A model generated the notes under the pieces. The model saw only the letters and a list, made by a program, of their open reading frames with translations. It searched no databases and was not told the DNA's origin. Made by a program: the position numbers and the translations under genes. From contig CP000070.1 of NCBI GenBank assembly GCA_000002445.1, positions 800,001-864,000 of the forward strand: 64,000 bases of DNA. The letters are read 5' to 3'. This stretch comes from Trypanosoma brucei (taxonomy: Eukaryota). Below, piece by piece: positions 13,901-56,294 of this stretch (position 1 is its first letter; each line of letters opens with the position of its first letter).

Positions 13901-16900
13901 TGTGGATTACCTTGTGACACCGAGTCAGAGACTTGAATGGGAGCAGCAGGGTCTTCCAAAAGACAATCTCTGTGCGGAAAACGCAATGATTCTTCACCGT
14001 AGTCGACGATACCCCCTACTCATTGACCCCAGCGGGGTTGCCACCGCATTTCTGCAGAAGAAACACAAAGATGGAACGATGCGTACCACAAGTTTCACGA
14101 AGAGCGATTATCTCAAGCAATTGGACATGGCCATCCGGTTCGGTTACGCACTTATCATAGAAGACGCGGAGTTCATGGACCCCATTATTGGACCACTTCT
14201 AAAGAACGAGATGCGACGTGTGGGAGGGCGCACGATGACGCGACTTGGTGGCCGTGAGGTGGAAACTACTTCTTCCTTTAGTTTGATTCTCATCACGCGT
14301 GATTCGCACTATCAACCACCTCCCGGAATAGCAGGAAGGGTCTGCCTTGTTAATTTTGCCGTGACACTGTCTTCGCTTGAGTCACAGTGCCGTCATCGGT
14401 TGCTGCTTCACGAACGGGCGGATGTCGATGAGCAGCGCGCCCGCGTCCTGAAGGTTCGGGAGGAGTATTCTGTTCGTGTGCGGGTGTTAGAACAGGAACT
14501 GCTCAAGCTGATTGCGGGAAGTGAAGGAAGTATTCTTGAGAATAATACACTGACTGTTGCACTGGAGCGGCTGAAGGGGGAGACAAAGGCGTTGAAGGAG
14601 GGGATTGTAGAGAGTGATGAATTGATGCGATCCATTACCGCTGTTGAAGAACATTACAAGCCACTTGCAACAGCAGTGTCAAAAGTTTACTTTGTTCTAC
14701 GCTGCTTCTCCCAGTTGCATGGATTGTATCAGTACAGTGTGAAGTTCATCTTCCGCGTATTGAATGACGCCCTTGACCAGCTACCCCCGCCTAGCAATTC
14801 CAACGGCGCGCAGCAGGAAGAAGCGCCCGCGGAAAAAAAAGAGGAGGATGCAGCGCGACTGCAAGTACTCACGAGACATGTGTTTTATCTTCTATATCAC
14901 CGCGCGCGGCGGGGCATGTTCGCGCAGGATCATCTTGTTCTTGCCACCGCCCTGGGTAAGGCGCGTAGTGGCATCGCCGATCCCATCGGGCAACAACTAA
15001 CTATTGAAGAGTGGAATCTCTTCGAAAGTGCGTTAGGCGGGCCGGTGGCAAGCACAGGCGTGTCAATACCAGCTGAAAGTATAAAAGGTGCTGACAGGCT
15101 TGACCAACTCCCCAAGATACTGTCTGGGTGCCGTGTGTGCTCGCCGTCTTCAGCCGCGGTTCTCGCGGAGCTGCTGAAGCTACCACTGTTTGAGCAAGTG
15201 CGGGTTTCACTGAATAACCCGGAGCATGGGGAGGCATGGAGAGCATACTTTGCAGCGGTGGAGCCCTACGCCGAGACGATACCTCCCTTTTCCCGAAAAG
15301 TCAAGAATTTCAGTGCCGATGACGCCAATTGCAGCAGTGTAGGTGGAAGCCATGCTGTGGGGCCCACACGCCGTGCGTTTATAACGGCTTTGCTACTTCT
15401 GCACACCCGCCGTGACGCTTTTGTGCCCGCTGCCTCAGAGTTCCTACGACTCTTTTTTGATGGTGCAGACGTGGCAGTGGGAGACGGGCGTGGCAACTGT
15501 GGGGAAAGCGGTTATCGTGCTATCGCTGGCCATGACGGTGCTAAAGGTGGCATGGGCGACTTTGATTCCTTCTTTTCGGCGGAAGTTCTTGATCTTGTTG
15601 CAATTCAGAAGGAGTTGACTAACACAACCCCACTCATATTAGTGGCGAATGCGGGGAGTGACCCAACGGTGTCGCTGGAGGCAGTGGCGAGTGCAATGAA
15701 TGTTCAACTACATACTGCCGTTATGGGCTCTGCAGACAGTACCGAAGCAGCTGAACGGTTCCTCACGACAGCAACGGTGGATGGTGCATGGGTACTACTA
15801 AAGAATATTCACATTGACCGCGCCTTCGCCGACGTTGTTGTGAGGCACTTGCATCGCGTTTTTGCCGGGGATCAGGTACATGAGGGCTTCCGCCTCATTT
15901 TATCCATGGAGGCGAAGGCACAGCATGTGGTTGGCAACCTTGGGGAGAGAGGTTGTGGTGGAGACGTAATAAATGCACGGTCCCCGCTCGACCTTCCTGT
16001 CAGTTTGGTGGAGTCATCAATCGTTGTGGTGTACGAACCACCTCCAGGTATGAAGGCTTCTCTTCTTCAAACTATTGGATCTCTGAGGGCCCCAACCCAA
16101 CAAGCTCCTTATTCTGCCGACATGGTGCGCATTTATCTTACTGCTGCTTGGTTTCACGCAGTGGTTATGGAACGGCTCCTATATGTTCCACTGGGTTGGA
16201 GCACGCGCTATGAAATCAACGACACGGAATTCTGGCACACATTGCAAGCCGTCAACCGTTGGGTGATGACGACGGAGAGCACCTCTGGAGGAAACACTGT
16301 TGGTGATATTGAGGGAAATCAAGTCTGTAGCGCTAACCGCGAGCATTTCCCATGGTTAGCCCTTCAAACCATAATCGGCACGGCTCTCTACGGCGGTAAA
16401 TTGAGCAACGACTTTGACCAATTTCTTCTAAATTCGTTCTGCACGCAGCTGTTTAGCCCCATTATTTTTGAGGACGACAAGTTTTTCGCATTGCTGGAGG
16501 GCCTATGCGTAAATCAGAAGCTTCGACTCCCTTCCATGGACACATTGAATGACGTTTTGGCGTGGGTAAAGTCCCTGCCGGACCCGCAGCCGCTTCGTTG
16601 GGCACGGTTGCCGGCAAGCGCCTCGCGGTTAATGTTAGAAAAGCAGGCGGTTGCTATGTTGGAACGGCTTGCGATTCTGCGATTTGTTGGTGAGAAAGAA
16701 CATAGTGGCCGCAGCATTGTTGACGGTTGCGCCGCCTACTCGGAGGAGTCAACCATACCGCGCTGTCTAACCGAAATGCAGTGGGCGCAGAAGGTTCGGC
16801 TGTTTTGTTCCTCATGGCGCTCCTCGCTAGAACGACTTGTTCCCGCAGGACAGGTCGTGTCGGCACAATCAGCAGAAACGCCGTCAGGGGGGAGGAGCAG

Positions 16901-26041: not shown

Positions 26042-26400
26042 AAGCGCATATACGTCCATGAAATCCCCTCGCGCAGTACTGTCAAAAAAAAAAGTGGGTG
26101 GACAGATGACATCCACTTCACTTACATACTTAACCACGGTTGAACGTGATAAACATACCGCAACAATTCGTGGGTTACACTTGTTTTACGTAATAACACA
26201 TATCTGGTAATAGCTGGGTTTTGTATCGCCAACTTCCTTTCTTCCCTTTTTCTTCGTGATGAGGGATAGCTTCCTGGATGATGCCCAAATACGTGTGATT
26301 CTGCGCACCTTCAGTCCTTTTCGTTGCCGTTTATCCACGGTTGTTTTCCTTTTCTTTTCCTCTTTTTCCTTCTATGTTACTTCATTACAGGACGCTGGCG

Positions 26401-28248
26401 ATGGCGACCTCTCGCAAGCAGGTAGTTGGCAAATACGAACTGGGGAAGGTTTTGGCGTCAGGATACTTCGATTGCCGCACTCGTATCTGCACGCACATAG
26501 TGACAGGAGCGCAATACGTCGTACGGATATACAGTAAAAGTACTCTGGCGGAGGCGCAGTGGATGTGGGATCGCACTCGCGATGCCATCCACGTCATGCG
26601 TACGCTGCCAAAGCACGAAAATATTATTGAGATTTCAGAGCTATTTGAAACAGAATCCTCACTCTACATTCTTATGCAGCTGTTCGCACCGATGCATCTG
26701 ACGAAGATGTATACAACTGTAGGTGAATCGGGGCAACGTGAGAGAGTGCCCATACAAAGGACAAAGGCACTTTTCCTGCAAGTTGTGCGGGGTTTAAGAC
26801 ACATGCACGACTGTAGTGTGGTGCACTTGGGACTGGCACCAGACCACGTCATGGTGAATGACAGGGACCATGTGAAAATTGGCAATCTCGTCTCTTGTAA
26901 ATATGTCCCAAAAGGAACGAAGTTGTGCCGTGACATTCGTGGCACAATGCACACCGTAGCGCCGGAGGTATTACGCAACGGGGAGTATGATCCTTATCTT
27001 GCGGACTCGTGGTCCATGGGCGTATTACTCTACTTCATGTTACACAATGGACGCTACCCGCACGATGGGGCAAATACAACGAAAAATATTTTATACAATA
27101 GGATCCGCCCACCTGATCCAAAGCTACCAGCAGAGGCGCTGAACCTATTGCAGCAGCTGCTGAGCCACAATCCCGGTTCTCGAATGCGTGTGGAACAAAT
27201 TGCGGATCACCCATTCTTTGCGACAGAACATAAAGATGTCGATACAGGTAGAACGGAGCAACAAGCAGCCAGATATACTGGCGTGGTGCCGAATTTATGG
27301 GCTAGCAGGACTGCGCATATCCCAGTAGTGCTAAGGGCGCCACTTAAGGAGCGAGTTCAGTACAGTGGTAACCGAGAGGACGCAGCCGCTTACCTGATAC
27401 AAATGTGTTATAAGGCATTCAGAGGCCGCAAACGGCGCTTTAGTGACCGCTTTTTGAGCACTCAACCACGTGGATCTATAAACCGCAGCCGCAGTCAAGT
27501 GGTTGAAGTGGTATGCCCCTCTTCACGATCGCGCCGAAGGAAGAATTACCAAACTCCGCACGGTGATACAGAGGCAGCCTTCGGACAGGAGCGAACGCAC
27601 CTCAGCTCGCAACACTATCAGCAACGATGGAGCGCAGTAACAAACACAGAAATGCAGCAAGGGGAACTGGGAAGCCGGACAAGCTCAATCAACAGTGGGT
27701 TCGCAAAATGTGGAGAAGGGCCTGCAGACCCGGCCGAAGGGAGCTCTTTTTTTGGGTTTAGCGGAAGCGAGTCAGAAGGTAGTCCAATGAACGCCACACA
27801 GGGATCCCATTTCAATTTTTCTTTGAAGTCGGGAAATTTGCCTCTGACCTTGCCACCACTCAGACGACAAGGAGGTCCCTGCAAGCTCGGCTGTGACCCT
27901 ACACTCGATGCTCCTGTTGGCACCCCTCCCAACAGTACTTTCGACGGACCCGATAACGCTTCCCCCACAACCGCATCCGTTTGCAACGAAGTGGTCCGTG
28001 CCGCATCATTCCGATTGCGAGTTCCCTCGATGCTTCACTTGAAGGCTGCTGAGGCATTTTCTCGGGACCTCGATCTTAGGGGCCCCGGTTTCACTCATTT
28101 CAACACGCGAGTTGACCCCGGGAGGCGTTGCCCGGTGTGCGACAGGCCCCCCGCGCAACGAATGAATCGTAAACAACCGTACCTGAACACACCATATGAG
28201 TACAAGGAGGGGAAATTTACCATTAAAACTGTTGCGGACTCTGATTAA
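26401..28248 (+). CDS. CAMK/AMPK-like pseudokinase with IQ-like motif and S/G/P-rich C-terminal tail
   Basis: Kinase-fold order is preserved but the key residues are altered. The Gly-loop is LASGYFD, VAIK becomes VVRIY, HRDLKPEN becomes HLGLAPDH, and DFG becomes IGN. The APE motif is retained and the domain ends with ..DHPFF. An IQ-like motif follows (AAYLIQMCYKAFRGRKRRF). A pyrimidine tract and AG lie just upstream of the ATG at 26401; the track start at 26341 is a TTG and 26374 is an alternative ATG. Confidence 0.7.
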   Translation: MATSRKQVVGKYELGKVLASGYFDCRTRICTHIVTGAQYVVRIYSKSTLAEAQWMWDRTRDAIHVMRTLPKHENIIEISELFETESSLYILMQLFAPMHLTKMYTTVGESGQRERVPIQRTKALFLQVVRGLRHMHDCSVVHLGLAPDHVMVNDRDHVKIGNLVSCKYVPKGTKLCRDIRGTMHTVAPEVLRNGEYDPYLADSWSMGVLLYFMLHNGRYPHDGANTTKNILYNRIRPPDPKLPAEALNLLQQLLSHNPGSRMRVEQIADHPFFATEHKDVDTGRTEQQAARYTGVVPNLWASRTAHIPVVLRAPLKERVQYSGNREDAAAYLIQMCYKAFRGRKRRFSDRFLSTQPRGSINRSRSQVVEVVCPSSRSRRRKNYQTPHGDTEAAFGQERTHLSSQHYQQRWSAVTNTEMQQGELGSRTSSINSGFAKCGEGPADPAEGSSFFGFSGSESEGSPMNATQGSHFNFSLKSGNLPLTLPPLRRQGGPCKLGCDPTLDAPVGTPPNSTFDGPDNASPTTASVCNEVVRAASFRLRVPSMLHLKAAEAFSRDLDLRGPGFTHFNTRVDPGRRCPVCDRPPAQRMNRKQPYLNTPYEYKEGKFTIKTVADSD

Positions 28249-30240: not shown

Positions 30241-30861
30241 ATGCGAGCTGAAAAGGTGACAGTATCGCCCGCTGGTGAAGGTGCCGCGCCCCTATTTGTG
30301 TTCGGTTACGGCTCCATACTGTGGAAGCAGCAGTTCGAGTACCTCCGCGCGTTGCCATGCTGCGTTCATGGCTACAAGAGGGTTTTCTATCAGGGCAGTA
30401 CGGACCACCGTGGCGTCCCCGCCAGGCCAGGCCGCGTTGTAACACTTCTCACGTGTGGCGACCCGGAGGCATGGGTGGGTGGGGTCGCGTTTGAGCTCCC
30501 GGTAGAGGAGGAGAAGCGGGAGAAAATCCTTGCCCAACTTGACGACCGCGAGAGTGGGGGCTATGAGCGGGAGGAGGTGACACTCTATGACATCAAAACG
30601 CACGAAAGGCTTCATTTGCCGCCCGGTGCCGTATGTTTATGTTATAGAGCAACTGAAGACAATCCTGAATACCTGGGGGAGGCAAAAGATGAAGCTATCG
30701 CCGAACAGATTTTGAGCTGTGAAGGATTGAGTGGACCGAACTCGGAATATTTGTTTAAGCTTGCTGAGGCACTTCGTAAACTGGAGAGTGCTGACCAACA
30801 TGTATTTGCAGTCGAGACCGCGGCTCTCCACATCATGAAGGCGCAAAATGTTCCCGAGTGA
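30241..30861 (+). CDS. ChaC: ChaC-family gamma-glutamylcyclotransferase (glutathione-specific)
   Basis: Carries the FGYGSILWK, GYKRVFYQGSTDHRGVPARPGRVVTLL and GGVAFELP...E..GGYEREEV motifs characteristic of ChaC/ChaC2. Confidence 0.85.
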   Translation: MRAEKVTVSPAGEGAAPLFVFGYGSILWKQQFEYLRALPCCVHGYKRVFYQGSTDHRGVPARPGRVVTLLTCGDPEAWVGGVAFELPVEEEKREKILAQLDDRESGGYEREEVTLYDIKTHERLHLPPGAVCLCYRATEDNPEYLGEAKDEAIAEQILSCEGLSGPNSEYLFKLAEALRKLESADQHVFAVETAALHIMKAQNVPE

Positions 30862-34317: not shown

Positions 34318-34809
34318 ATGCTGCGCTCAACTCTGACCTCACTGAACACGTTTCTCACAAGCTCCGTCGCCACCCCACCGATATCTGTAATTAGAACGGG
34401 GCCGAAATGGTGGGCGGATCCCGAGCGCATGGTACGGCAGAAACTCATGTACTTCACGTTAGGGGTCGATCAGCTTCCACTGCGACGAACGGCGGTCATA
34501 CAGCGAGACCTGCAACGCTTCCATATGTGCAAACCGCCTCCCCGTGTTGGGGACTCAACGGGCTACAAACGCTCCCGGGCAGCTCAACTTAACACTTGGT
34601 ATCGCCGCATCCAGTACCAGGAGTATCACATGCAGCATCTCTTCACCAGGCATGTGTGGGGACTGTTGCGTGTGTACCCGGGGAACACTACGAAGATACA
34701 AGGCAAGGCAGATGATGGCTACGTGGGGTACGATTCGGTTCCGTTCCACCGATACAATCGGGCTCCTCTCCCGTTCCCCGCACGGGAACTTTACGAGCGG
34801 AGGAAATAG
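34318..34809 (+). CDS. Hypothetical small protein (163 aa); N-terminus resembles a mitochondrial presequence (MLRSTLTSLNTFLTSS)
   Basis: ATG-initiated ORF and the last gene of the plus-strand array before the strand-switch region. No recognisable domain. Coding status is uncertain because a 109-aa ORF overlaps it in another frame. Confidence 0.35.
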   Translation: MLRSTLTSLNTFLTSSVATPPISVIRTGPKWWADPERMVRQKLMYFTLGVDQLPLRRTAVIQRDLQRFHMCKPPPRVGDSTGYKRSRAAQLNTWYRRIQYQEYHMQHLFTRHVWGLLRVYPGNTTKIQGKADDGYVGYDSVPFHRYNRAPLPFPARELYERRK

Positions 34810-36328
34810 TCGAAAGGCATGTTGTATACGGAAGGACGGAGGGAGGGAGTTACAGTGGAAGAACGTCTTTTAAGAAGTGTGAACGTTTATCGCGCGTGCT
34901 TGGGGATGAGAGAAGTTCCTTGTGCATTGTCAATTTGTCTTGTACGTGGGGATGCTGCTGTCACACGCTCTTTTTCTCCACCTTCTAAGAAAGGAGTACC
35001 ACCGATAGGATTTTAGGATGAAGGAGTGCTGGAGGTGCCTAAACGAATTAAATAGCTTAGTAATATGAGGAAGGGAAGGAACACCTTAAATGTTCACGAA
35101 TCACCACCGGGGCACAAAGCCATAGCCGCTACCCACAAATCACGCTCAACGCGCCTCTAACGACAAAGCGAAGGGGTGCTGCAAACGGCTGGCGATAAGT
35201 GGAAATCACAACTACTATTGGGGCCGGCGTTGTGGGTTTTTTCAGTGTGCTTTCGCGTTGTGATGACAATGAGTTCCACTACCATTCACCAACCATCCAC
35301 AAAAGAGGGACGATACGCGGAGTCCCAAAATGAGGAGGACTAATGCGCGATCACTCTCCTCCTCGCGTTTTCGGAAGGGGCGAGGAAAAACTACTCTCAT
35401 AGACAGTTTTCAGCGCCGTCAAACCATGCCGGCGCAGCCGCGGAAACTTCCTAAGGTAACATCTTTCCTCTCCTCCTCCCCCATTTTCCAGAGCAGCCGT
35501 GCGCCTCCTCAGTGACGAGAAGAAAAAAACACCGTCAGACATGGGAACCTCTCTTGCCCAAAGACCGATGTAGATCTGTGACCTACGGCATGCCGTTTAC
35601 CTCCACCAAAAGTGACAAAATCACACCGTGAAATCCACTTTTTTTTTTTTCGACGGCGCTAAGCTACCCCCAGAAGCCAGCCGACCCGACTGACAGACAA
35701 CCACCAGCGAAACATGACCCCTCCTCTGCATCTTAGAAGTCACCTCCATTTCCAGTGCAATTCTTACCGTGCGAGAGAACGAAAGGAACTAGGACCACCA
35801 TTTGCAAAAATGGATCGCCCAAAGCACGAACAGCTTCGACCCAGCTTGCGGGTGGGTTAGGATAGTTGCAATTCCTTCTTTTGGACTATCATCTAAAGCG
35901 CACTAAAACAAAGATTCGGGGGAAGTGAAAACCCACGTCGTGACAGGTCGTTATTAACCTTAACTCTACAACTGTCGTTGCCTTAACCAGTAGGGTTAGT
36001 CCTGTCTCCTTTTATGGTTGGCATTATTCGCTTCTTCTTTTGTTGGGTAGCTAAATTTAAAAAAAAATCTCCGGAGTTTAGCGCAGTTGGTTATTACAGT
36101 TTTCCTTTACACCCCGCTCCATTTAATTCGATTTCCTAGTGTCCGGGTGTCGCCTGCCGAACGTGCATCTGTCCCTAGCTCTCCCCCCCCCCTCTCGCTG
36201 GAAACCTATGTTAGTCTCATCCCCTTATCCCCTCCCCCGAAATGTGTTTTTATTCTCTCTTTTTCCTTCCCCCTCCGTAATATTAATCAACAATACGAAG
36301 CAGGACGGTTTCGGCGGTAACATTCCCT
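34810..36328. terminator. Convergent strand-switch region: inferred RNA pol II transcription termination zone between the plus- and minus-strand polycistronic units
   Basis: Every confident gene below 34.8 kb is on the plus strand and every one above 36.3 kb is on the minus strand. The interval has no long ORF or recognisable domain. I scanned it for a tRNA and found none. In trypanosomatids such regions are marked by base J and histone H3.V, which is established knowledge, not visible here. Confidence 0.6.
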
Positions 36329-37990
36329 TCAAAGCATTCGCAACAATAGAACTGCGGAACAAAGTGCAGCGGCACGAACACCCGAATGTGCTGCCGGATT
36401 GGACTCCGCTCTCATGACAGGTCTTCGCGCCGGTTCTGCAGAATAGTTGGATTTCAGTCGTACCTCCTCTTGTCCCCTTGAGGTGGATTCTTCGTTCACT
36501 CTCCTCGACAACTCCAAACTGTTCAGAATCTCCCCGATCAGTTCCTCGTGAAGCTGGTCATTAGTGAGTTCTGCCTCTTTGTGCCCTATGCATTTCGTCA
36601 ATTCATCCGCGGTAGTTTTTATTTTTTCCATAACCGCATTTTTTGCTTCTTCGAAACGCGCAAACAGGCGGATGACATCCCCAAATATACTCACTTTATT
36701 GGGATCTTCAGTCCACCGCACTGCACCGTAGGAAGTGACGTCACCGTACTCTCCCCCCTTTACATTTAGTTTGCCTTCCACACTTGATGCGAAATTCATC
36801 ACTCCACCACCCCACGTGAAGCTGTGACTCAATGACCCACCTTTTAATAAACCGTCTGTTGCCGTCCTCATCAAGTTGCAACCCCTGTCTTCATTTCGTT
36901 CAATGATGCTCTCCGCACCCAAGCTACTGAAGGAAATGGATGATAGCGCTTCGTGGAGTTGCAAGTTTTTCTCTGCCGACTTCGTTACATGTGAATCCTC
37001 GATTTTGTAAAGGGTTTCAGGTCCAATTGTTCCACGAAAACATTCTTGCAACTTGTCGTGCACCGCTGGCCTGCTCCCTCCCACGCTTATGCAAAACTGC
37101 GACGTCGTGCGTGCCGCCTGTGCAAATGCAAAAATCCACTCTTCCAGTCTTCCGGCTGCTAACCCAGCGGCGGCTGCTGCTAGCGCCGATGCATTCCTCA
37201 TTTCCTCTAACTCCTGCTGGAATGTAAACTCATTCTTCAATACTGTTTTCAAGAGTGTCCTGATGTCTTTACAATCTTTCTCACTAGAAGGTACGCTGTT
37301 TCGCATTACCGATAACTGCAACTGCGCGCTTTTGATCTTCAAATCTGACAGTTTCTTCATAACCGCAGCACTCCCGCTGTTTACTCTGTGTGCTACCCCT
37401 TTAAGATATGTCGATAACTCACACACTTTATTAGCGGCTGTCGCGTTTAGTGCATTCCTTTCATAATAATTTGCACGTGTTTCTTTTCCCAACAGCGCCA
37501 ACAGCACGAACCAAAACCTCATTTTGTTCTCTTTATTTAATTATACTTGAGCTTTCACCTTCGTTACTGAGTAAAAACTAAATCACTCGTGCTATTCTTG
37601 ACACAGATTACCATTGTGGTGACAGTCCGGGAGAATACATTCTCAGTCCCATTTTGCTTTGTCCTACCAAACTCTCATTATAATAAACACCACTGCCTCA
37701 CACGCGTAGGTAGCAGCTACGTCCCCCCAACACACACACACACACACAACATTCCCCTCAATTGCTCACTTGAAAACAAATAGCAACAGTAATAACACAC
37801 ACACCGCAACAAATTGTACCTCAAATACTTGTTTCCTTCCCTACATCCGAACCATCTTATCCAGCCTCCACTCGACACAGTGTTTTGAAGGGAATAAAAA
37901 CCACTTCCAGGATATTGCTAACCAACAACCCTCCTTCTCGTTAATTAACGCCCTTTTCAACCGATTCTCTTTCGGTGTAGATGATACCGA
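35773..37990. repeat. Copy A of a roughly 2.2-kb tandem duplication carrying the surface-protein gene and its flanks
   Basis: 35773-37990 and 38158-40373 are near-identical by direct reading, apart from one replaced segment of about 80-90 bp and a 1-bp difference in a C-run. They are separated by a unique spacer of about 167 bp (37991-38157). Confidence 0.9.
36329..37522 (-). CDS. GPI-anchored, alanine-rich, predicted helical surface protein resembling the VSG / haptoglobin-hemoglobin-receptor (HpHbR/GARP-type) group; copy A, intact
   Basis: 397 aa. Has an N-terminal signal peptide (MRFWFVLLALLGKETRA), six spaced Cys, Ala-rich helical segments and N-glycosylation sequons. The C-terminus is ..AAHS|GVRAAALCSAVLLLRML, a Ser followed by a 17-residue hydrophobic GPI signal. 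Family assignment is inferred from architecture only. Confidence 0.7.
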   Translation of the reverse strand: MRFWFVLLALLGKETRANYYERNALNATAANKVCELSTYLKGVAHRVNSGSAAVMKKLSDLKIKSAQLQLSVMRNSVPSSEKDCKDIRTLLKTVLKNEFTFQQELEEMRNASALAAAAAGLAAGRLEEWIFAFAQAARTTSQFCISVGGSRPAVHDKLQECFRGTIGPETLYKIEDSHVTKSAEKNLQLHEALSSISFSSLGAESIIERNEDRGCNLMRTATDGLLKGGSLSHSFTWGGGVMNFASSVEGKLNVKGGEYGDVTSYGAVRWTEDPNKVSIFGDVIRLFARFEEAKNAVMEKIKTTADELTKCIGHKEAELTNDQLHEELIGEILNSLELSRRVNEESTSRGQEEVRLKSNYSAEPARRPVMRAESNPAAHSGVRAAALCSAVLLLRML

Positions 37991-38157
37991 TCATCCCTTG
38001 CAGCTTCATACCACCCTACCCTTCATGGCAGCGCCTTGTCGCTTACTTCTAGCTCTGCGTCCGTGTATTATAACCAAGCGGTAGGTAAAACCAACAACCA
38101 CCAAAAAGATAAGAAAAATAATCCTCATTTAAAACCCCCAAAGTTGTACTTTCCTCA

Positions 38158-40373
38158 ATAAACTAGGACCACCATTTGCAAAAATGGATCGCCCAAAGGA
38201 CGAACAGCTTCGACCCAGCTTGCGGGTGGGTTAGGATAGTTGCAATTCCTTCTTTTGGACTATCATCTAAAGCGTACTAAAACAAAGATTCGGGAGAAGT
38301 GAAAACCCACGTCGTGACAGGTCGTTATTAACCTTAACTCTACAACTGTCGTTGCCTTAACCAGTAGGGTTAGTCCTGTCTCCTTTTATGGTTGGCATTA
38401 TTCGCTTCTTCTTTTGTTGGGTAGCTAAATTTAAAAAAAAAATCTCCGGAGTTTAGCGCAGTTGGTTATTACAGTTTTCCTTTACACCCCGCTCCATTTA
38501 ATTCGATTTCCTAGTGTCCGGGTGTCGCCTGCCGAACGTGCATCTGTCCCTAGCTCTCCCCCCCCCTCTCGCTGGAAACCTATGTTAGTCTCATCCCCTT
38601 ATCCCCTCCCCCGAAATGTGTTTTTATTCTCTCTTTTTCCTTCCCCCTCCGTAACATTAATCAACAATACGAAGCAGGACGGTTTCGGCGGTAACATTCC
38701 CTTCAAAGCATTCGCAACAATAGAACTGCGGAACAAAGTGCAGCGGCACGAACACCCGAATGTGCTGCCGGATTGGACTCCGCTCTCATGACAGGTCTTC
38801 GCGCCGGTTCTGCAGAATAGTTGGATTTCAGTCGTACCTCCTGTCACTTTATTCCTAACCGCCCAAACCCCGCACTGAGGTCCCACTTCACAGCAACTCC
38901 AGATAGTTTTGTATCGCCTTGAATTGCCGTTCGTGAAGCTGGTCATTAGTGAGTTCTGCCTCTTTGTGCCCTATGCATTTCGTCAATTCATCCGCGGTAG
39001 TTTTTATTTTTTCCATAACCGCATTTTTTGCTTCTTCGAAACGCGCAAACAGGCGGATGACATCCCCAAATATACTCACTTTATTGGGATCTTCAGTCCA
39101 CCGCACTGCACCGTAGGAAGTGACGTCACCGTACTCTCCCCCCTTTACATTTAGTTTGCCTTCCACACTTGATGCGAAATTCATCACTCCACCACCCCAC
39201 GTGAAGCTGTGACTCAATGACCCACCTTTTAATAAACCGTCTGTTGCCGTCCTCATCAAGTTGCAACCCCTGTCTTCATTTCGTTCAATGATGCTCTCCG
39301 CACCCAAGCTACTGAAGGAAATGGATGATAGCGCTTCGTGGAGTTGCAAGTTTTTCTCTGCCGACTTCGTTACATGTGAATCCTCGATTTTGTAAAGGGT
39401 TTCAGGTCCAATTGTTCCACGAAAACATTCTTGCAACTTGTCGTGCACCGCTGGCCTGCTCCCTCCCACGCTTATGCAAAACTGCGACGTCGTGCGTGCC
39501 GCCTGTGCAAATGCAAAAATCCACTCTTCCAGTCTTCCGGCTGCTAACCCAGCGGCGGCTGCTGCTAGCGCCGATGCATTCCTCATTTCCTCTAACTCCT
39601 GCTGGAATGTAAACTCATTCTTCAATACTGTTTTCAAGAGTGTCCTGATGTCTTTACAATCTTTCTCACTAGAAGGTACGCTGTTTCGCATTACCGATAA
39701 CTGCAACTGCGCGCTTTTGATCTTCAAATCTGACAGTTTCTTCATAACCGCAGCACTCCCGCTGTTTACTCTGTGTGCTACCCCTTTAAGATATGTCGAT
39801 AACTCACACACTTTATTAGCGGCTGTCGCGTTTAGTGCATTCCTTTCATAATAATTTGCACGTGTTTCTTTTCCCAACAGCGCCAACAGCACGAACCAAA
39901 ACCTCATTTTGTTCTCTTTATTTAATTATACTTGAGCTTTCACCTTCGTTACTGAGTAAAAACTAAATCACTCGTGCTATTCTTGACACAGATTACCATT
40001 GTGGTGACAGTCCGGGAGAATACATTCTCAGTCCCATTTTGCTTTGTCCTACCAAACTCTCATTATAATAAACACCACTGCCTCACACGCGTAGGTAGCA
40101 GCTACGTCCCCCCAACACACACACACACACACAACATTCCCCTCAATTGCTCACTTGAAAACAAATAGCAACAGTAATAACACACACACCGCAACAAATT
40201 GTACCTCAAATACTTGTTTCCTTCCCTACATCCGAACCATCTTATCCAGCCTCCACTCGACACAGTGTTTTGAAGGGAATAAAAACCACTTCCAGGATAT
40301 TGCTAACCAACAACCCTCCTTCTCGTTAATTAACGCCCTTTTCAACCGATTCTCTTTCGGTGTAGATGATACC
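38158..40373. repeat. Copy B of the roughly 2.2-kb tandem duplication
   Basis: Same alignment as copy A. Similarity ends at about 40373, where gatgataccg is followed by cgactacc rather than the atcatccc that follows it in copy A (about 37990). Confidence 0.9.
38888..39907 (-). CDS. Copy B of the surface-protein gene: same first 324 codons, then a divergent 3' segment that terminates early (..DQLHERQFKAIQNYLELL*) and lacks the GPI signal; possible pseudogene or soluble variant
   Basis: Identical to copy A from the ATG through ..LTNDQLHE. The copy-A segment at 36480-36557 is replaced in copy B by unrelated sequence at about 38869-38957, which gives a stop at 38888. The GPI-signal coding sequence is still present and intact downstream of the stop, at about 38705-38868, but is untranslated. 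Confidence 0.5.
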   Translation of the reverse strand: MRFWFVLLALLGKETRANYYERNALNATAANKVCELSTYLKGVAHRVNSGSAAVMKKLSDLKIKSAQLQLSVMRNSVPSSEKDCKDIRTLLKTVLKNEFTFQQELEEMRNASALAAAAAGLAAGRLEEWIFAFAQAARTTSQFCISVGGSRPAVHDKLQECFRGTIGPETLYKIEDSHVTKSAEKNLQLHEALSSISFSSLGAESIIERNEDRGCNLMRTATDGLLKGGSLSHSFTWGGGVMNFASSVEGKLNVKGGEYGDVTSYGAVRWTEDPNKVSIFGDVIRLFARFEEAKNAVMEKIKTTADELTKCIGHKEAELTNDQLHERQFKAIQNYLELL

Positions 40374-41228
40374 GCGACTACCGTTCGCCACAACTGTTGT
40401 GGTTGCTTCAAGTGGTGGTGAGCAAAGCGTTAAGGTATCACTACAATTTGAGGAGAACAAGAGGTCATCTTTTATTATACTGTGCGCTCCAACAGCGCTT
40501 CCTTGTACACAAATTATGTTTGCTAATTTCCTGTCCTTGAGGAGCTCCCTATTCCACAACGCGACACCAGTCTCAGTACAACTTTCCCTTCTTGAAGGTA
40601 CGTTTGCGATTGCGTCACGGGAACACGAAAGTAGCAACAACATTTTTTTTGCTTCACTCCTCCAGTGGACCTATTTGGTACTAATGCTTTTTGTTAACAC
40701 GTTGTCAAAAGGTTGCGGCATCCCATACCCCGAAGCACGCATCTGCATGATCCCCTAACCAACGGCGTACGAATAAGGCGATGCATTTGTTAACGCATGT
40801 TCGTTTGCATGTTTCCTCGCACTTCTGGGAGCGTGAGGTTGACGCGCCTCACCCGATCACTGCCGCACTATCAGCGCAGACGCAGTAACTCTAAAGGAGG
40901 AAGTGTGCCAACACATGTGTGAGGAAAGAATGGCAGTTCTTAAAGCTATGCCCCTAGTAGCTACAGTGGGGCCTCACACCTCCCGTGTGGTCAATGTTTT
41001 GTGCTTCGCTTCTGCAGTTGAATCACACTTGTCCAGTAAAAAAAAAACGGACGGAAGAAAGGAAGTAGATTGAGGACAGCACGGAGAGTGTAACAAAGAA
41101 ATTCCACAGACGTAGACACGCCTTCTTTTCAGCGCAAATCCCTCGGCAAGGGATTCCTACCTTCAGTGCATGCCCAACACAAACAATAACAAGTTACAAC
41201 ACCACCGGAAACAAAAAAAAACGTCCAC

Positions 41229-43652
41229 TCAACTCTCAACAAGAAAAACCATTTTTGCCTCAGGGGTATCTTGAATGCGAAAGTGTGCACGGTTCGCCTC
41301 AACCAATTTCAGCACTCCACCATAGTGTCGATTAGCCGCTTGCTGAACGCTAAGCGAAGCCCAGAGGAGCAGCTGCGAGGCCTCAACTCCTCGCGCCGGT
41401 ATCAAACTTCGCACCGCTTGCACGGCTTCCTCACGAGATAAAAAGTCGTTCTCTGCGAATTCCGCCTCCAAGTCGAGCGACTCACCAGAACATTCAGCTG
41501 AGACGTTAGCCTGGGAAGAGAGAGTAGAAATGGAAGGCGACCGCGCATCTCCAGACGTTCTCGGTGTAATGGGTGCCTCACCAAAAATATTGCCAGATCG
41601 CCCCCCACTAACTTTCTTCACTTTCCGCATTAAGAAAACTCCGGGCGACGTCTCTTTGCAAACGAAAAGATCAGGAAACAACTGCAAGACAGTGACGATA
41701 CGCGGTGGCAACACAGCCCGCATCGCAGGACTTGCGCACTGAAGGAAGAAGGCAGCTGTGCATGGTTCGTCATCGGGGGCCACATAGTGAAACACAACAG
41801 CCAAATCGCGCGGCGTTTGGTACGGATTCTCCTCACGGATGATGACACGTGTCGCCATATCGCCCGGTGCGGGTTCGGGCTCCTGTGAAGAAAGTGGGTC
41901 GGAGAGGTCTACGCGAGCAATGAAGTTCTCCCCAACACGAAATATGCGGGGATGACGATTCAGAATGTGCATCATCCCCTCAAAACCACCAACCATCACT
42001 TTCTCTTCTTCCGTAAGGCGAACATAGACATAGTGAGACCGATCCCACGTCGTGCATACGCGTCCCATGAGAATTATAAGACCTCGAACGTCTTCCGGAA
42101 ATTGCTCGAAGTCTTCAATGAAATGACCCTTCCAGCGGTCGCTGTTCGCCCCAATGCGCCTTCTCACAAGAGGCGTGTCCGTGTACCTTAGTTGAACTAC
42201 TTCGAATTGGGCAGGGTGATTCTTAACGCAGCCAATCAATTCGTTATGAGTTAAGTTTTTCTTTGTGTAGCGCTGCATCAGTAGGGACGAAGGAACAAAG
42301 TATCCGGGACAAACGCGCGAAACAAACTTCAGGATCGTCGCAAGCTGCTGAGACTCACCAGCCATGTTCGTAACTTCACCTTCCGCATTGAGAGGAATCA
42401 AACTATTGGCTTCCCCCTTTGCAATCTTGAGCTGTAACTGTTCGTGGGCTTCTTCGGGCGTTAGCCCATGCGCCTCAGGGTGCAACACTATGCTACGCCG
42501 GATCTCCGTCGTTCCTGCGATGCTACGGAGTTCAAAGTAGAAAGGCTGACGACGAAACCACTGCAACGTGGAGGAAATACGAATATGCTTCTTTTTTACC
42601 GCCGGTGGTAAGTTAAGGTTTCCAAAGTTTCCCCAGTTAACAGGAACGTACTTCAGGATTTCATACACATCTTCACGCGTGGGCACATTAGATGCAGCGG
42701 CCCAACCTCCATAGGCGTTCATGGAATTTGCGCCACGTGTTTGCGGCTGCGGTGACACGAAACGTGGAGGCTTTGACTCCCCAGCAAGTCGAGTGCAAAT
42801 GTACCTGTCGTGCAACACCCAGAATTCTCCCGCTGCGCGCGGCGTGCGGAGCAAACTAAGAAAGTCTCCGTACTTAACCGTATGGACAGTACCGCTGAGT
42901 TCACAAACTCGAGAGCCCTCCCGCAAGAGAAGGGAATAGGCTTCGCTGAGGGGTTTGTAATTAGGCTCATCCCTCTCACGCCGCCCAAGCACATCGTCGC
43001 GTAGGACGTCCAGGAGCTTTTCGGCGGCGCCCACCAGTCCCCTGTGCGTTCCTTCCGACGCATGCGACCCGATACGTTCGCCCGCTTCATTAACCGTCTC
43101 AGATTCGTCCTTATCGACATCAGCAAGGTAACTCTTCGGTTCGGCGGTAAGTTCCACATGACGAAGTCCATGAGCGTCCTCCACGAGCCGAAGGAGGAGG
43201 CATTTCTGCAACCATTCCTCGACACCCATTCCGCTGCCGAAGATATTGTCACGGCTTACTTTTGGCAGCTGCTCAACAAACACCTTAAGTCCTACACGAC
43301 CACTGGCATGCTGACGTGCAACTACCATTGCTGCAGCACGCTCCGCCACGGGGCGAGTATTAAAAATTGCAGTGAACTCATCTGGTGGAATTGCTTTAAA
43401 CCCGGGTTCTGAAAACGACAAAGCAAAGGGTTCATCACACCCTTCTGGTGAATCGGGTCCTGAGGATCGGAACCGCAGAGAAGCGAAGGGGCTGGCAGCG
43501 GGAATGTCACCGCGGGGTTTCCTCTTTCTTTCGTGAATAAGTTGGTGGTAGTGGACACGATTCTGGAGAATAAACTGCTGCCCTAGCAGCGAGCTGCCCC
43601 AAGGCAACGGTGTTGTGGAGAAAAGGAACTGAATTCGAAGGCGACGATGCAT
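41229..43652 (-). CDS. Conserved hypothetical protein (about 807 aa)
   Basis: Long uninterrupted minus-strand ORF. The first ATG is at 43652, since the track start at 43655 is a TTG. No motif I can name. Confidence 0.55.
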   Translation of the reverse strand: MHRRLRIQFLFSTTPLPWGSSLLGQQFILQNRVHYHQLIHERKRKPRGDIPAASPFASLRFRSSGPDSPEGCDEPFALSFSEPGFKAIPPDEFTAIFNTRPVAERAAAMVVARQHASGRVGLKVFVEQLPKVSRDNIFGSGMGVEEWLQKCLLLRLVEDAHGLRHVELTAEPKSYLADVDKDESETVNEAGERIGSHASEGTHRGLVGAAEKLLDVLRDDVLGRRERDEPNYKPLSEAYSLLLREGSRVCELSGTVHTVKYGDFLSLLRTPRAAGEFWVLHDRYICTRLAGESKPPRFVSPQPQTRGANSMNAYGGWAAASNVPTREDVYEILKYVPVNWGNFGNLNLPPAVKKKHIRISSTLQWFRRQPFYFELRSIAGTTEIRRSIVLHPEAHGLTPEEAHEQLQLKIAKGEANSLIPLNAEGEVTNMAGESQQLATILKFVSRVCPGYFVPSSLLMQRYTKKNLTHNELIGCVKNHPAQFEVVQLRYTDTPLVRRRIGANSDRWKGHFIEDFEQFPEDVRGLIILMGRVCTTWDRSHYVYVRLTEEEKVMVGGFEGMMHILNRHPRIFRVGENFIARVDLSDPLSSQEPEPAPGDMATRVIIREENPYQTPRDLAVVFHYVAPDDEPCTAAFFLQCASPAMRAVLPPRIVTVLQLFPDLFVCKETSPGVFLMRKVKKVSGGRSGNIFGEAPITPRTSGDARSPSISTLSSQANVSAECSGESLDLEAEFAENDFLSREEAVQAVRSLIPARGVEASQLLLWASLSVQQAANRHYGGVLKLVEANRAHFRIQDTPEAKMVFLVES

Positions 43653-44382
43653 CAATGCACCGTGGTCGGATCCTCGCTATAGTTGCCGTACTCCAGAAGC
43701 AAGAGATTAAAGGATGGAGAAAAAGCCCTCTAAACTCCCTTTTAGTAATTACACATTCCACTAGGAACCAGTAGTTGTGACGTTTCAGAGAGTTGTTGTG
43801 AAGATCTCCTAATCACACTTGATCATGTTACCACAGTTAAACACTAGATACTAACGTAACGGAAAGCGAGAACTGGCAAAATAAAATGGAGAACGCTGAA
43901 CGAGAGGGACAGCCCCTGCTACAGACACGACCCTTACCCTCCTCAGCGCTCGGACCTACCGCAACCTCAGTTTCTCACCAAACATACACACACAGACACA
44001 CACAGCGGTGATCGATCCTGCAGTGGCCAGTGAGCATAATCGGACAACGCACGGGTACCGCTCTTGTGAAGGGTCGCGTCACATACGAAGCTCCCCATCT
44101 CCTCCTTGCTTATGGCCCCTTCGGCCACTACAATGGCGCCGGTGCGCGACCCTCTCCGTGAGCCTGTTTGCAGCAAAGATGTCGACAGCGAGCACAACAG
44201 TTCGTACAACACCGCACCCGCGGGGGGGGGGGAACGATAATGACAACAATCTCCACATGCATTCTCTTCATCGGTGGAATTCACAGCGAATCAATTCCTG
44301 CGATGTTAATAACGAATACACCCAAAAGTACTGCGTAATCAGTGCTGTTTTTGGCATACGGAACTGATGTTTACTTCAACCC

Positions 44383-54846: not shown

Positions 54847-55889
54847 AACTGCAGGTTGTGCTGATGCTTTTTTTTTTGTTCCTTCCTTGTATGTACAGAC
54901 CCGTATACAGGCATACATGCATATACACATTTGTATAAATCAACCACATGTAAAGGATGAAGGAAAGGGATAAATTTCCCGTTAATTTTCGGAGTATTGA
55001 GGGTGACGTGAAAAAAAATAAATCACACAGTAACGTGAAAGGGATAAAAGCACGGAAAATGAGTCGTGTGCACACTCACACTATGTCCATGTGCAGATGT
55101 GAGACTGCAAAAGACGAATCGGGCGCCTCGGAGCCTGGTACTGTCAAAAAAACTGAACTGCCTCACAGATGAGCAAATAGGTAACTCAGCCGCAAAGCAT
55201 GGAAGGGAGGGGAAGAAAATATGAGACCATGGATCTCAATCGGAACAAAGCATAGCCTTTTACAGACGCGCCTCGTGTACACAAGTCCTTTTTCTTAAGC
55301 ACATGTTACCACCCAACACATGAAAACTGTCACGGGTACTTATGCACCTGCAGTGGGCAGTGTACGCTATACCACAGTTGCAGCGACCTGTAGAGCAACA
55401 ACAATGAGGGAACGGAGAAACCACAGAACCTCCTCAGCAGAGTAACGGAAGGGAAAGGTGATCGAAATCAGGGGCAATAGGTTGTTCAAAGGCGACTAAA
55501 ACACGTACGCGGAATGCCCATATTAATATGTTGCAAGAAGGTGACGCGCCCAAGCGAGAGCTCCTCGGAAGGCGAAAGGCCAAAGGCGCCAAAGAAAGAG
55601 GAAAAAAAAGAGAAAAAGCGGGGAGAGGAAGGGGAAGAACACAAGAAAGAGGTTCGCCGCGACTCTCATTCGCACCCACGCACACAAACACCCACCCACG
55701 TGCGCGGAGGCCAGTGTGGAGATGCAAACAAAGAGTTCCCCAACTGTGTGAAACTATATACAAATATGTAAGAATCATGCATATATATATTTGCCTGTTA
55801 AAGGTGAGTTGTAGAATTGTGACAACCCTCCTGGAGGATCATAACACCATCCTCTCCCTGCAAGTGAAGGGGAACACATCACCGCATGT

Positions 55890-56294
55890 TCAACCAAATG
55901 TATTTTCCACACCATACGACACGTACAGAAAGCCATCAGGGTCTTTTGCCCTTGCGTAAATGTCTCCCAAGCAGGCACTGTTCGGCGGTAGTTCATTTCC
56001 TATAAACACAAATACGGCTTGACCCTCTTCTAGCAGCAGCCGCTGCCGCAGCGCCATCATGAACTCCATAACGGTAGCAGTTTCAGGGAGAAGAAACTTA
56101 TTACAGTCCAGCTCGCGCTGCACCTGCTGCCGTGTGGAGAAGAGCCTCACATCACGCGGTGTAGAGGCGCTAGCGGCTGAAGTGGGCTCGCAAAGGATGG
56201 GAATGTGTTTGGGGTAGCGCAAGCGCGCGGATTCTGTTTCCTTCGCGCGTTCAGCAAAACTACGTGTGTACTGGTACCGGTAGTGTGAAGGCAT
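55890..56294 (-). CDS. ATG8: ATG8-family ubiquitin-like autophagy protein (ATG8/ATG12-like), about 134 aa with an internal insertion of about 20 aa and a native C-terminal Gly
   Basis: Aligns to ATG8/GABARAP across the fold: ..SFAERAKETESARLRYPKHIPILCE.., LDCNKFLLPETATVMEFMMALRQRL.LEEGQAVFVFIGNELPPNSACLGDIY....DGFLYVSYGVENTFG*. Internal ATG at 56294. Confidence 0.8.
   Translation of the reverse strand: MPSHYRYQYTRSFAERAKETESARLRYPKHIPILCEPTSAASASTPRDVRLFSTRQQVQRELDCNKFLLPETATVMEFMMALRQRLLLEEGQAVFVFIGNELPPNSACLGDIYARAKDPDGFLYVSYGVENTFG

What the first reader, a model, noticed from the sequence alone, without database searches (positions are those of the whole stretch)
34810..36328. Convergent strand-switch (termination) region flanked directly by surface-protein genes
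Gene orientation flips here, from all plus below 34.8 kb to all minus above 36.3 kb, so two RNA pol II polycistrons must terminate in this interval of about 1.5 kb. It has no recognisable coding or tRNA content, although tRNAs often sit at such sites. The nearest genes on each side are a small possible mitochondrial protein and the surface-protein pair. In trypanosomes, genes next to termination sites are often repressed by base J and H3.V read-through control, so this arrangement may be a way to keep a surface receptor at low abundance.
Basis: partly seen in the sequence, partly recalled or inferred. Interest (0 to 1): 0.5.

Follow-up and report, generated by a model that had tools for sequence, protein, structure and literature searches.

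The report
Known trypanosome transcription stop zone
This is an ordinary, already documented place on Trypanosoma brucei chromosome 7 where two head-on gene arrays end, next to a stray copy of the parasite's transferrin-receptor genes; published knockouts already show it is a base J/H3.V-dependent stop zone.

Summary
The window is T. brucei TREU927 chromosome 7. All credible genes are on the plus strand up to 34809 and on the minus strand from 36329. The 1.5-kb gap has no tRNA, no Rfam match and no ORF longer than 65 aa lying wholly inside it. The flanking genes are mitoribosomal protein mS72 (Tb927.7.3240 by numbering) and the chromosome-internal ESAG6/ESAG7 pair (Tb927.7.3250/3260).

Both the arrangement and its function are already published:
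- Reynolds 2016 flags Tb427.07.3260 as within 10 kb of H3.V and base J.
- Schulz 2016 shows antisense read-through into genes on both sides (Tb927.7.3220, Tb927.7.3270) when J and H3.V are both deleted.

Sense RNA of Tb927.7.3250 does not rise in any mutant, and the 1.9-fold rise of Tb427.07.3260 is not significant.

Comparative analysis shows the following:
- The strand switch is ancestral: mS72 faces the same convergent gene across 468 bp in T. cruzi and about 900 bp in Leishmania.
- The ESAG pair is a T. brucei-lineage insertion.
- In two sister genomes it is reduced to one frameshifted copy.
- 542 bp of the interval is simply the ESAG 3' flank, repeated downstream of ESAG7.

Verdict: real, ordinary, already known.

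The parts
34318..34809 (+). Last gene of the plus-strand unit: mitoribosomal small-subunit protein mS72 (Tb927.7.3240 by numbering)
   Evidence: PDB 6hiv_DY/6sg9_DY mS72, E=4e-113 over 163/163 residues. 85-89% identical orthologues across trypanosomatids. The ID is inferred from Tb927.7.3210 = kinase and Tb927.7.3220 = ChaC.
34810..36328 (.).
   Evidence: No tRNA, no Rfam family, longest ORF wholly inside 65 aa. 98-99.9% identical in three other Trypanozoon assemblies. No similarity to the T. theileri or Leishmania loci.
34810..35786 (.). Single-copy part of the interval. It is G-rich on the plus strand for about 400 bp after mS72, then C-rich. The local GC skew changes sign at about 35.1-35.3 kb.
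   Evidence: Self-BLAST shows no second copy in the window. Fine-scale skew profile. Polypyrimidine tracts on both strands.
35787..36328 (-). ESAG6 3' flank, the start of repeat unit A (35787-37989)
   Evidence: 98.9% identical to 38161-38702.
36329..37522 (-). ESAG6-like gene (Tb927.7.3250), last gene of the minus-strand unit. It has an ESAG7-type receptor head plus the ESAG6 C-terminal GPI-signal tail.
   Evidence: PF00913 E=1.8e-10. 72-73% identical to expression-site ESAG6. Alignment A2.
37523..37989 (-). 467 bp upstream of ESAG6, 100% identical to 39908-40374 upstream of ESAG7
37990..38160 (.). 171-bp spacer between the two repeat units. It is unique in the window, absent from the single-copy genomes L001 and L002, and present in L003.
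38161..38887 (-). ESAG7 3' flank, the start of repeat unit B (38161-40374). It includes a silent copy of the ESAG6 C-terminal coding sequence.
38888..39907 (-). ESAG7-like gene (Tb927.7.3260). It is identical to the ESAG6-like gene except for a patch of about 88 bp that carries the ESAG7-type C-terminus and stop.
   Evidence: 100% identical to the TREU927 ESAG protein P0001. Alignment A1.
41229..43655 (-). Conserved 808-aa gene (Tb927.7.3270), the ancestral convergent partner of mS72
   Evidence: 54% identical over 523 residues to the Leishmania 970-aa gene in the same convergent position. T. cruzi has an 802-aa gene 468 bp from mS72. Antisense RNA rises in the J/H3.V double null.

Best explanation
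This is a conventional convergent strand-switch region (a Pol II transcription termination region) of T. brucei chromosome 7. The plus-strand unit ends with the mitoribosomal gene mS72. The minus-strand unit ends with a chromosome-internal ESAG7-ESAG6 pair. The 1.5 kb between the stop codons is non-coding. It holds the two 3' UTR and downstream regions: about 1 kb of single-copy DNA plus 542 bp of ESAG 3' flank. Polymerases arriving from both sides are stopped in chromatin marked by base J and histone H3.V (shown in the literature for this locus). H4.V and the JBP3/PNUTS/Wdr82/PP1 pathway probably also take part (inferred from general knowledge, not shown here). When J and H3.V are both removed, transcription runs through into the opposite unit for at least 6-7 kb in each direction. 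The strand switch itself predates the split of Trypanosoma and Leishmania. The ESAG pair was inserted at the end of the minus-strand unit in the T. brucei lineage, probably from a telomeric expression site. It has been homogenised by gene conversion and is decaying in sister subspecies. Its position next to the stop zone reflects a tolerated insertion site, not a dosage-control device.
For: - Orientation and gene identities.
- Empty interval.
- Chromatin marks: H3.V 'Yes' and base J 'Yes' within 10 kb of Tb427.07.3260 (Reynolds 2016 S1 Table).
- Read-through: antisense RNA of Tb927.7.3220 and Tb927.7.3270 is up more than 4-fold with Q<0.05 in the J-null H3.V-null mutant (Schulz 2016 S6 Table). 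Gene IDs were mapped to the window through.
- Ancestral strand switch: ChaC-WD40-mS72 faces a convergent 802-970-aa orthologue followed by a GTPase in T. cruzi (gap 468 bp), Leishmania (gap about 900 bp) and T. theileri. None has an ESAG or a tRNA there.
- Insertion and decay: the interval between mS72 and the 808-aa gene is 6.42 kb here. It is 4.04-4.07 kb with a single frameshifted ESAG6-type copy in L001 and L002.
Against: I did not see the ChIP or J-IP tracks themselves, only the authors' yes/no flag at 10-kb resolution. The read-through signals are significant but tiny in absolute terms (0.17-0.38 RPKM). The two ESAG copies are nearly identical, and expression-site copies are similar as well. 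Unique-mapping RNA-seq therefore under-counts them and multi-mapping RNA-seq over-counts them, so 'no derepression' is weaker than it looks. Equating the Reynolds small-RNA region (chr7 831,874-841,946) with this cSSR rests on gene-number spacing only. The precise termination points, and the polymerase that transcribes the ESAG pair, are not established. The frameshift in L001 could be an assembly error.
Confidence: 0.87

Rival explanations
1. The position is a dosage-control device. Termination begins upstream of or within the ESAG pair, so J/H3.V chromatin keeps this receptor copy at a low, tunable level, as for the gene clusters at cSSR 3.3, 7.3 and 7.7 in Reynolds 2016.
For: Genes next to cSSRs are over-represented among the lowest-expressed genes (Jensen 2009, PMC2771046). 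Tb427.07.3260 is nominally 1.47-fold up with DMOG, 1.90-fold up in the H3.V KO, and goes from 86.8 to 179 RPKM in H3.V KO plus DMOG. Unique-mapping sense signal of Tb927.7.3250 is very low (log2 RPKM -1.9). The region Reynolds quantified is 10 kb wide and would cover the ESAG genes.
Against: The Reynolds change is not significant (P=0.76, 0.51 and 0.44). Tb927.7.3250 sense RNA does not rise in the J-null, H3.V-null or double mutants. Neither ID occurs in the supplementary files held for the PJW/PP1 study (Kieft 2020). The locus is a single frameshifted copy in T. b. gambiense and in L001. Both 927 subunits carry the same ESAG7-type binding loops, so a working heterodimeric receptor from this locus is doubtful.
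Confidence: 0.08
2. The ESAG7-ESAG6 pair brought its own expression-site (Pol I) promoter, or has its own Pol II start site. It would then be a separate mini-unit, as at the procyclin/PAG loci, and only one long Pol II polycistron ends here.
For: The gene order ESAG7 then ESAG6 is the order found immediately downstream of expression-site promoters (Jackson 2013; Hertz-Fowler 2008). The related PAG genes sit in a Pol I unit between two convergent Pol II polycistrons (PMC3581582). About 1.3 kb lies between Tb927.7.3270 and ESAG7.
Against: No expression-site DNA could be retrieved for comparison, so this was not tested. The unit shared by both copies extends only 467 bp upstream of the ATG. Uniquely mapped expression is very low rather than at Pol I level. 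Minus-strand read-through into ChaC appears on loss of J/H3.V, as at other cSSRs.
Confidence: 0.04
3. The strand switch is an annotation illusion: the flanking ORFs are non-coding and the real switch lies elsewhere.
For: None beyond the fact that ORF lists are purely mechanical.
Against: mS72 is a protein seen in solved mitoribosome structures. The ESAG products match known proteins. The same convergent gene order is called independently in T. cruzi, Leishmania, T. theileri and three Trypanozoon assemblies.
Confidence: 0.01

Closest known systems
T. brucei convergent strand-switch regions / Pol II transcription termination regions marked by base J, H3.V and H4.V (Siegel 2009; Reynolds 2016; Schulz 2016)
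   Same: Two convergent polycistrons meet across a short non-coding gap. H3.V and J are reported within 10 kb. Antisense read-through appears on both sides when J and H3.V are deleted. There is no Pol III gene, as at 133 of 154 annotated termination regions.
   Different: Nothing essential. Its one particular feature is that the last two genes of one unit are ESAG6/7 copies.
J/H3.V-repressed gene clusters at the ends of polycistrons (cSSR 3.3, 7.3 and 7.7 in Reynolds 2016: VSG-related, ESAG, RHS genes)
   Same: Members of a surface or expression-site gene family occupy the last positions of a unit next to J/H3.V chromatin.
   Different: Those clusters are significantly derepressed 2- to 40-fold. 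Here the change is 1.9-fold and not significant for Tb427.07.3260, and nil for Tb927.7.3250.
Telomeric bloodstream expression-site ESAG7-ESAG6 pair (transferrin receptor; PDB 6SOY)
   Same: Same gene order, PF00913 fold, 72-80% identity, an ESAG6-type GPI tail and an ESAG7-type truncated C-terminus.
   Different: The pair is chromosome-internal, between housekeeping genes. The two genes are identical except for about 88 bp, and both have ESAG7-type binding loops. In sister subspecies it is one frameshifted copy.
Procyclin/PAG loci (a Pol I unit with ESAG6/7-related PAG genes, placed between convergent Pol II units)
   Same: ESAG6/7-family genes sit at a convergent junction of Pol II polycistrons.
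   Different: No Pol I promoter is known or shown here, and there are no procyclin genes.

Membership tests
T. brucei convergent strand-switch / Pol II termination region | Protein-coding genes converge: plus-strand unit on the left, minus-strand unit on the right, non-coding gap between | tested here: met
   Gene reality is supported. The same topology is seen in seven other genomes.
T. brucei convergent strand-switch / Pol II termination region | Enrichment of base J and histone variants H3.V/H4.V | not testable with these tools
   Literature only. Reynolds 2016 S1 Table marks Tb427.07.3260 'H3.V Yes, Base J Yes', meaning within 10 kb. H4.V was not checked.
T. brucei convergent strand-switch / Pol II termination region | Read-through or antisense transcription into the opposite unit when the marks are removed | not testable with these tools
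   Literature only. Schulz 2016 S6 Table: antisense RNA of Tb927.7.3220 and Tb927.7.3270 is up in the J-null H3.V-null mutant, Q=0.022 and 0.033.
T. brucei convergent strand-switch / Pol II termination region | No transcription-start marks (H2A.Z, H4K10ac) inside | not testable with these tools
   No data were accessible.
Termination regions coinciding with Pol III genes (tRNA/snRNA subclass) | A tRNA or snRNA gene within the region | tested here: not met
   ARAGORN finds none in the window or in 7 related loci. Rfam finds none.
siRNA-producing convergent regions | Abundant 21-27-nt small RNAs from overlapping transcripts | not testable with these tools
   Reynolds 2016 S2 Table: chr7 831,874-841,946 gives 8.3 RPM in WT and 18 in the H3.V KO (not significant), against thousands of RPM at siRNA loci. 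That this region is this cSSR is inferred from gene-number spacing.
ESAG6/ESAG7 transferrin-receptor genes | VSG A-type N-terminal fold and close similarity to expression-site ESAG6/7 | tested here: met
   PF00913 E about 2e-10 for both genes. 72-80% identity to ESAG6/ESAG7 clusters.
ESAG6/ESAG7 transferrin-receptor genes | One GPI-signal-bearing subunit (ESAG6) and one truncated subunit (ESAG7) | tested here: met
   Alignments A1 and A2.
ESAG6/ESAG7 transferrin-receptor genes | Two distinct subunit-specific ligand-binding loop regions | tested here: not met
   The first 325 residues are identical in the two genes, and both have ESAG7-type loops.
ESAG6/ESAG7 transferrin-receptor genes | Telomeric position directly downstream of an expression-site Pol I promoter | tested here: not met
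   The pair is embedded between conserved housekeeping genes, at a junction that is syntenic with T. cruzi and Leishmania. Presence of a promoter was not tested.

The most novel reading that the evidence does not exclude
The chromosome-7 ESAG7-ESAG6 pair of TREU927 might be a working, Pol II-transcribed, expression-site-independent receptor. Its output would be set by how far polymerase leaks into J/H3.V/H4.V chromatin at the end of the unit. That would give a route to transferrin-receptor (or related ligand) expression that bypasses monoallelic expression-site control and varies between strains.
Probability: 0.05. Interest if true: 0.45.

Novelty: already known. Interest (0 to 1): 0.1.

Why it matters
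It matters little as a discovery. The locus, its strand-switch position, its J/H3.V marks and its read-through behaviour in knockouts are all in the literature. The practical points are the following:
1. Tb927.7.3250/3260 are routinely used as 'the' transferrin-receptor IDs in omics studies that map to the 927 reference. They are in fact a divergent, homogenised internal copy at a termination zone, so such read counts are mostly a proxy for expression-site copies.
2. The locus is a clean example of an expression-site-derived insertion at an ancient convergent junction: 468 bp in T. cruzi against 6.4 kb here.

Tried and rejected
- **Expression-site DNA.** I tried to fetch it to define the transposed segment and to look for a Pol I promoter upstream of ESAG7. 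None of the ESAG6/7 proteins (P0001, P0002, P0004, P0005, or the window's own ESAG6) is on record with a contig, and no cluster member carries a contig. Literature look-ups for the promoter sequence found nothing usable. The Pol I rival therefore stays untested.
- **T. theileri locus (L004).** It has the same topology, but a 4.5-kb run of N fills the gap, so its content is unknown.
- **Logan contigs carrying an 80%-identical mS72 (L010-L012).** They show different synteny and come from an unidentified kinetoplastid, so they were not used.
- **Conservation of the interval.** BLAST against T. theileri and Leishmania loci gave only chance hits. The Trypanozoon genomes are 98-99.9% identical everywhere, too close to reveal constraint.
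- **Kieft 2020 supplements.** They contain no occurrence of the ESAG IDs, which is a weak negative.
- **Bacterial-type promoter/terminator scan.** Not run, because it does not apply to trypanosomes.
- **Cryptic small gene or ncRNA in the gap.** No support.

Full report
**1. What is in the sequence**

The window is Trypanosoma brucei brucei TREU927 chromosome 7. [quoted passage not shown]

Long ORFs that are not nested in a longer one are all on the plus strand up to 34809. From 36329 they are all on the minus strand, apart from one unsupported ORF at 57540-58037. Cumulative GC skew peaks at about 34 kb.

The gap 34810-36328 has no tRNA and no Rfam family. No ORF wholly inside it exceeds 65 aa. 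It has no tandem repeats of note, and its base composition is ordinary.

**2. The flanking genes**

The 'small possible mitochondrial protein' is mS72, a kinetoplastid mitoribosomal small-subunit protein seen in the solved T. brucei mitoribosome (6hiv chain DY, E=4e-113).

The 'surface-protein pair' is an ESAG7-like gene (339 aa) followed by an ESAG6-like gene (397 aa). Both match PF00913 and are 72-80% identical to expression-site copies.

Gene IDs can be anchored from the literature. Tb927.7.3210 is the pseudokinase at 26341-28248. Tb927.7.3220 is the ChaC-like protein at 30241-30861. ESAG6 and ESAG7 are Tb927.7.3250 and Tb927.7.3260. By numbering, the WD40 gene is 3230, mS72 is 3240 and the 808-aa gene is 3270.

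**3. Anatomy of the interval and the ESAG block**

The two ESAG genes sit in two repeat units, 35787-37989 and 38161-40374 (97.6% identity), separated by a unique 171-bp spacer.

- The 467 bp upstream of each ATG are 100% identical.
- The coding regions differ only in a patch of about 88 bp that supplies the ESAG7-type C-terminus and stop.
- A silent copy of the ESAG6 tail and 3' flank lies downstream of the ESAG7 stop.

Only 34810-35786 is single-copy.

Local GC skew is positive for about 400 bp after mS72 and negative from about 35.25 kb onward. This suggests, weakly, that the two units' downstream regions meet near 35.1-35.3 kb.

Both proteins carry ESAG7-type residues in the variable ligand-binding loops. 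The 'ESAG6' here is therefore a mosaic, of a kind also seen in expression sites (BES7 ESAG6a; Hertz-Fowler 2008).

**4. Comparative evidence**

Exact-protein look-ups of mS72 and its relatives gave loci from other genomes.

- **Three Trypanozoon assemblies.** These are FN554970.1, which from my own knowledge is T. b. gambiense DAL972 chromosome 7, plus GCA_003543875.1 and GCA_001457755.2. They share the junction at 98-99.9% identity.
- **Copy number.** Two of them (L001, L002) hold only one ESAG6-type copy. The distance from mS72 to the 808-aa gene is 4.04-4.07 kb there, against 6.42 kb here.
- **Reading frames.** That single copy has two frameshifts in gambiense and one in L001. The gambiense copy also carries patches typical of expression-site ESAG6, which indicates ongoing gene conversion.
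- **Further out.** The order ChaC - WD40 - mS72, facing a convergent orthologue of the 808-aa gene followed by an EF-Tu-like GTPase, is conserved in T. cruzi (gap 468 bp), Leishmania (gap about 900 bp; 54% identity of the partner gene) and T. theileri (its gap is unsequenced). None of these has an ESAG or a tRNA at the junction.

The strand switch is therefore ancestral to trypanosomatids. The ESAG pair is a T. brucei-lineage insertion at the very end of the minus-strand unit. This agrees with the suggestion in Jackson 2013 of 'a secondary transposition from an ES'.

**5. What is already published about this exact junction**

- **Reynolds 2016 (PMC4721609), S1 Table**, lists Tb427.07.3260 with RPKM of 86.8 (WT), 127 (DMOG), 165 (H3.V KO) and 179 (both). 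The P values are 0.76, 0.51 and 0.44. The gene is flagged as within 10 kb of both H3.V and base J.
- **Reynolds 2016, S2 Table**, gives a chromosome-7 convergent region at 831,874-841,946 with only 8.3 small-RNA RPM in WT and 18 in the H3.V KO, not significant. siRNA-producing regions give thousands of RPM. That this is our junction is my inference from gene-number spacing.
- **Schulz 2016 (PMC4721952)** defines cSSRs from coding end to coding end and maps stranded poly(A)+ reads uniquely to Tb927v5.
  - In the J-null H3.V-null mutant, antisense RNA rises for Tb927.7.3220 (0.014 to 0.169, Q=0.022) and Tb927.7.3270 (0.012 to 0.377, Q=0.033). These genes are 6.1 and 7.4 kb from the cSSR. This is read-through across the junction in both directions.
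  - Sense RNA of Tb927.7.3250 is unchanged: log2 RPKM is -1.90 in WT, -2.63 in J-null, -2.42 in H3.V-null and -1.82 in the double mutant.
- **Staneva 2021** reports that only 20 of 154 termination regions overlap tRNA or snRNA genes. The absence of a tRNA is therefore typical.
- **Jensen 2009** had already noted that weakly expressed genes cluster next to convergent regions, and that VSG-related genes typically reside at internal strand switches.

**6. Interpretation**

The best explanation is a standard J/H3.V-marked Pol II termination region at an ancient convergent junction, with an expression-site-derived ESAG7-ESAG6 insertion as the last genes of one unit (confidence about 0.87).

- **Shown:** orientation, gene identity, absence of RNA genes, repeat anatomy, deep synteny, and copy loss with frameshifts in sister genomes.
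- **From the literature:** J/H3.V proximity, and read-through on loss of both marks.
- **Inferred:** involvement of H4.V and the PJW/PP1 pathway, the exact stop points, and Pol II as the polymerase for the ESAG pair.

The near-identity of the two copies, and their similarity to expression-site copies, make all short-read expression estimates for these genes unreliable in either direction. Several omics papers in fact use these IDs as a proxy for the expression-site receptor.

A cryptic promoter upstream of ESAG7 could not be tested because no expression-site DNA was retrievable.

**7. Verdict**

The finding is real, correctly located and largely correctly interpreted as a termination region. 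Novelty: already known. Interest: 0.1.

Noticed in passing
window 36329-37522 and 38888-39907: The ESAG6-like and ESAG7-like genes are identical for the first 325 codons and differ only in a patch of about 88 bp. Both have ESAG7-type ligand-loop residues, so the 'ESAG6' is a mosaic of an ESAG7 body and an ESAG6 GPI tail. A heterodimer from this locus would have two identical binding heads.
   Followed up: yes
window 38161-38842: Downstream of the ESAG7 stop lies a 99-100% copy of the ESAG6 C-terminal coding sequence and 3' flank (matching 35787-36468). ESAG7 here is in effect an ESAG6 unit with a small cassette that introduces the stop.
   Followed up: yes
window 37990-38160: A 171-bp spacer lies between the two ESAG repeat units. 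It is unique in the window, absent from the single-copy genomes L001 and L002, and present in L003 (98.8%). Its origin is unknown; it may be an expression-site intergenic remnant.
   Followed up: partly
L002 12012-13215 and L001 12005-13205: In T. b. gambiense the locus has a single ESAG6-type copy with two frameshifts and patches identical to expression-site ESAG6 (for example GSPTRHNLTWGGG and YEEFIWETIHRLELSKRVSEQPSLGEEEETILKSNY). In GCA_003543875.1 there is a single copy with one frameshift after the signal peptide, which could be a sequencing error.
   Followed up: partly
L003 11470-11793: The GCA_001457755.2 contig shows the first 32 bp of the repeat unit, then the 171-bp spacer, then the unit start again, and then ends. 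This is either a deleted unit or an assembly collapse at the repeat.
   Followed up: no
L008/L009 10493-10960; L005-L007 10493-about 11390: The ancestral mS72 convergent junction is only 468 bp in T. cruzi and about 900 bp (67% G+C) in Leishmania. There is no tRNA and no surface gene at either.
   Followed up: yes
window 37730-37748 and 40115-40133: An (AC)9.5 dinucleotide repeat lies about 210 bp upstream of each ESAG start codon, as part of the duplicated unit.
   Followed up: no
window 54931-58887: About 4 kb has no long minus-strand ORF, strong positive AT skew and low G+C. The only ORF of at least 160 aa is 57540-58037 on the plus strand, with no Pfam hit. This is probably a long UTR or intergenic stretch downstream of the FAZ1-domain gene.
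   Followed up: partly
window 58888-63861 (-): A 1657-aa ORF has a FAZ1 conserved domain (PF23398, E=6e-23), very negative GC skew, and long overlapping ORFs in other frames on both strands, typical of a repetitive coding region.
   Followed up: partly
window 1911-17789 (+): A 5292-aa ORF occupies a quarter of the window. It was not characterised.
   Followed up: no
L010-L012: Logan contigs from runs SRR22803242-45 encode an mS72 that is 80% identical, but with different neighbours (an alcohol dehydrogenase downstream on the same strand, no WD40 gene upstream). They come from an unidentified kinetoplastid in which this junction is not convergent.
   Followed up: no
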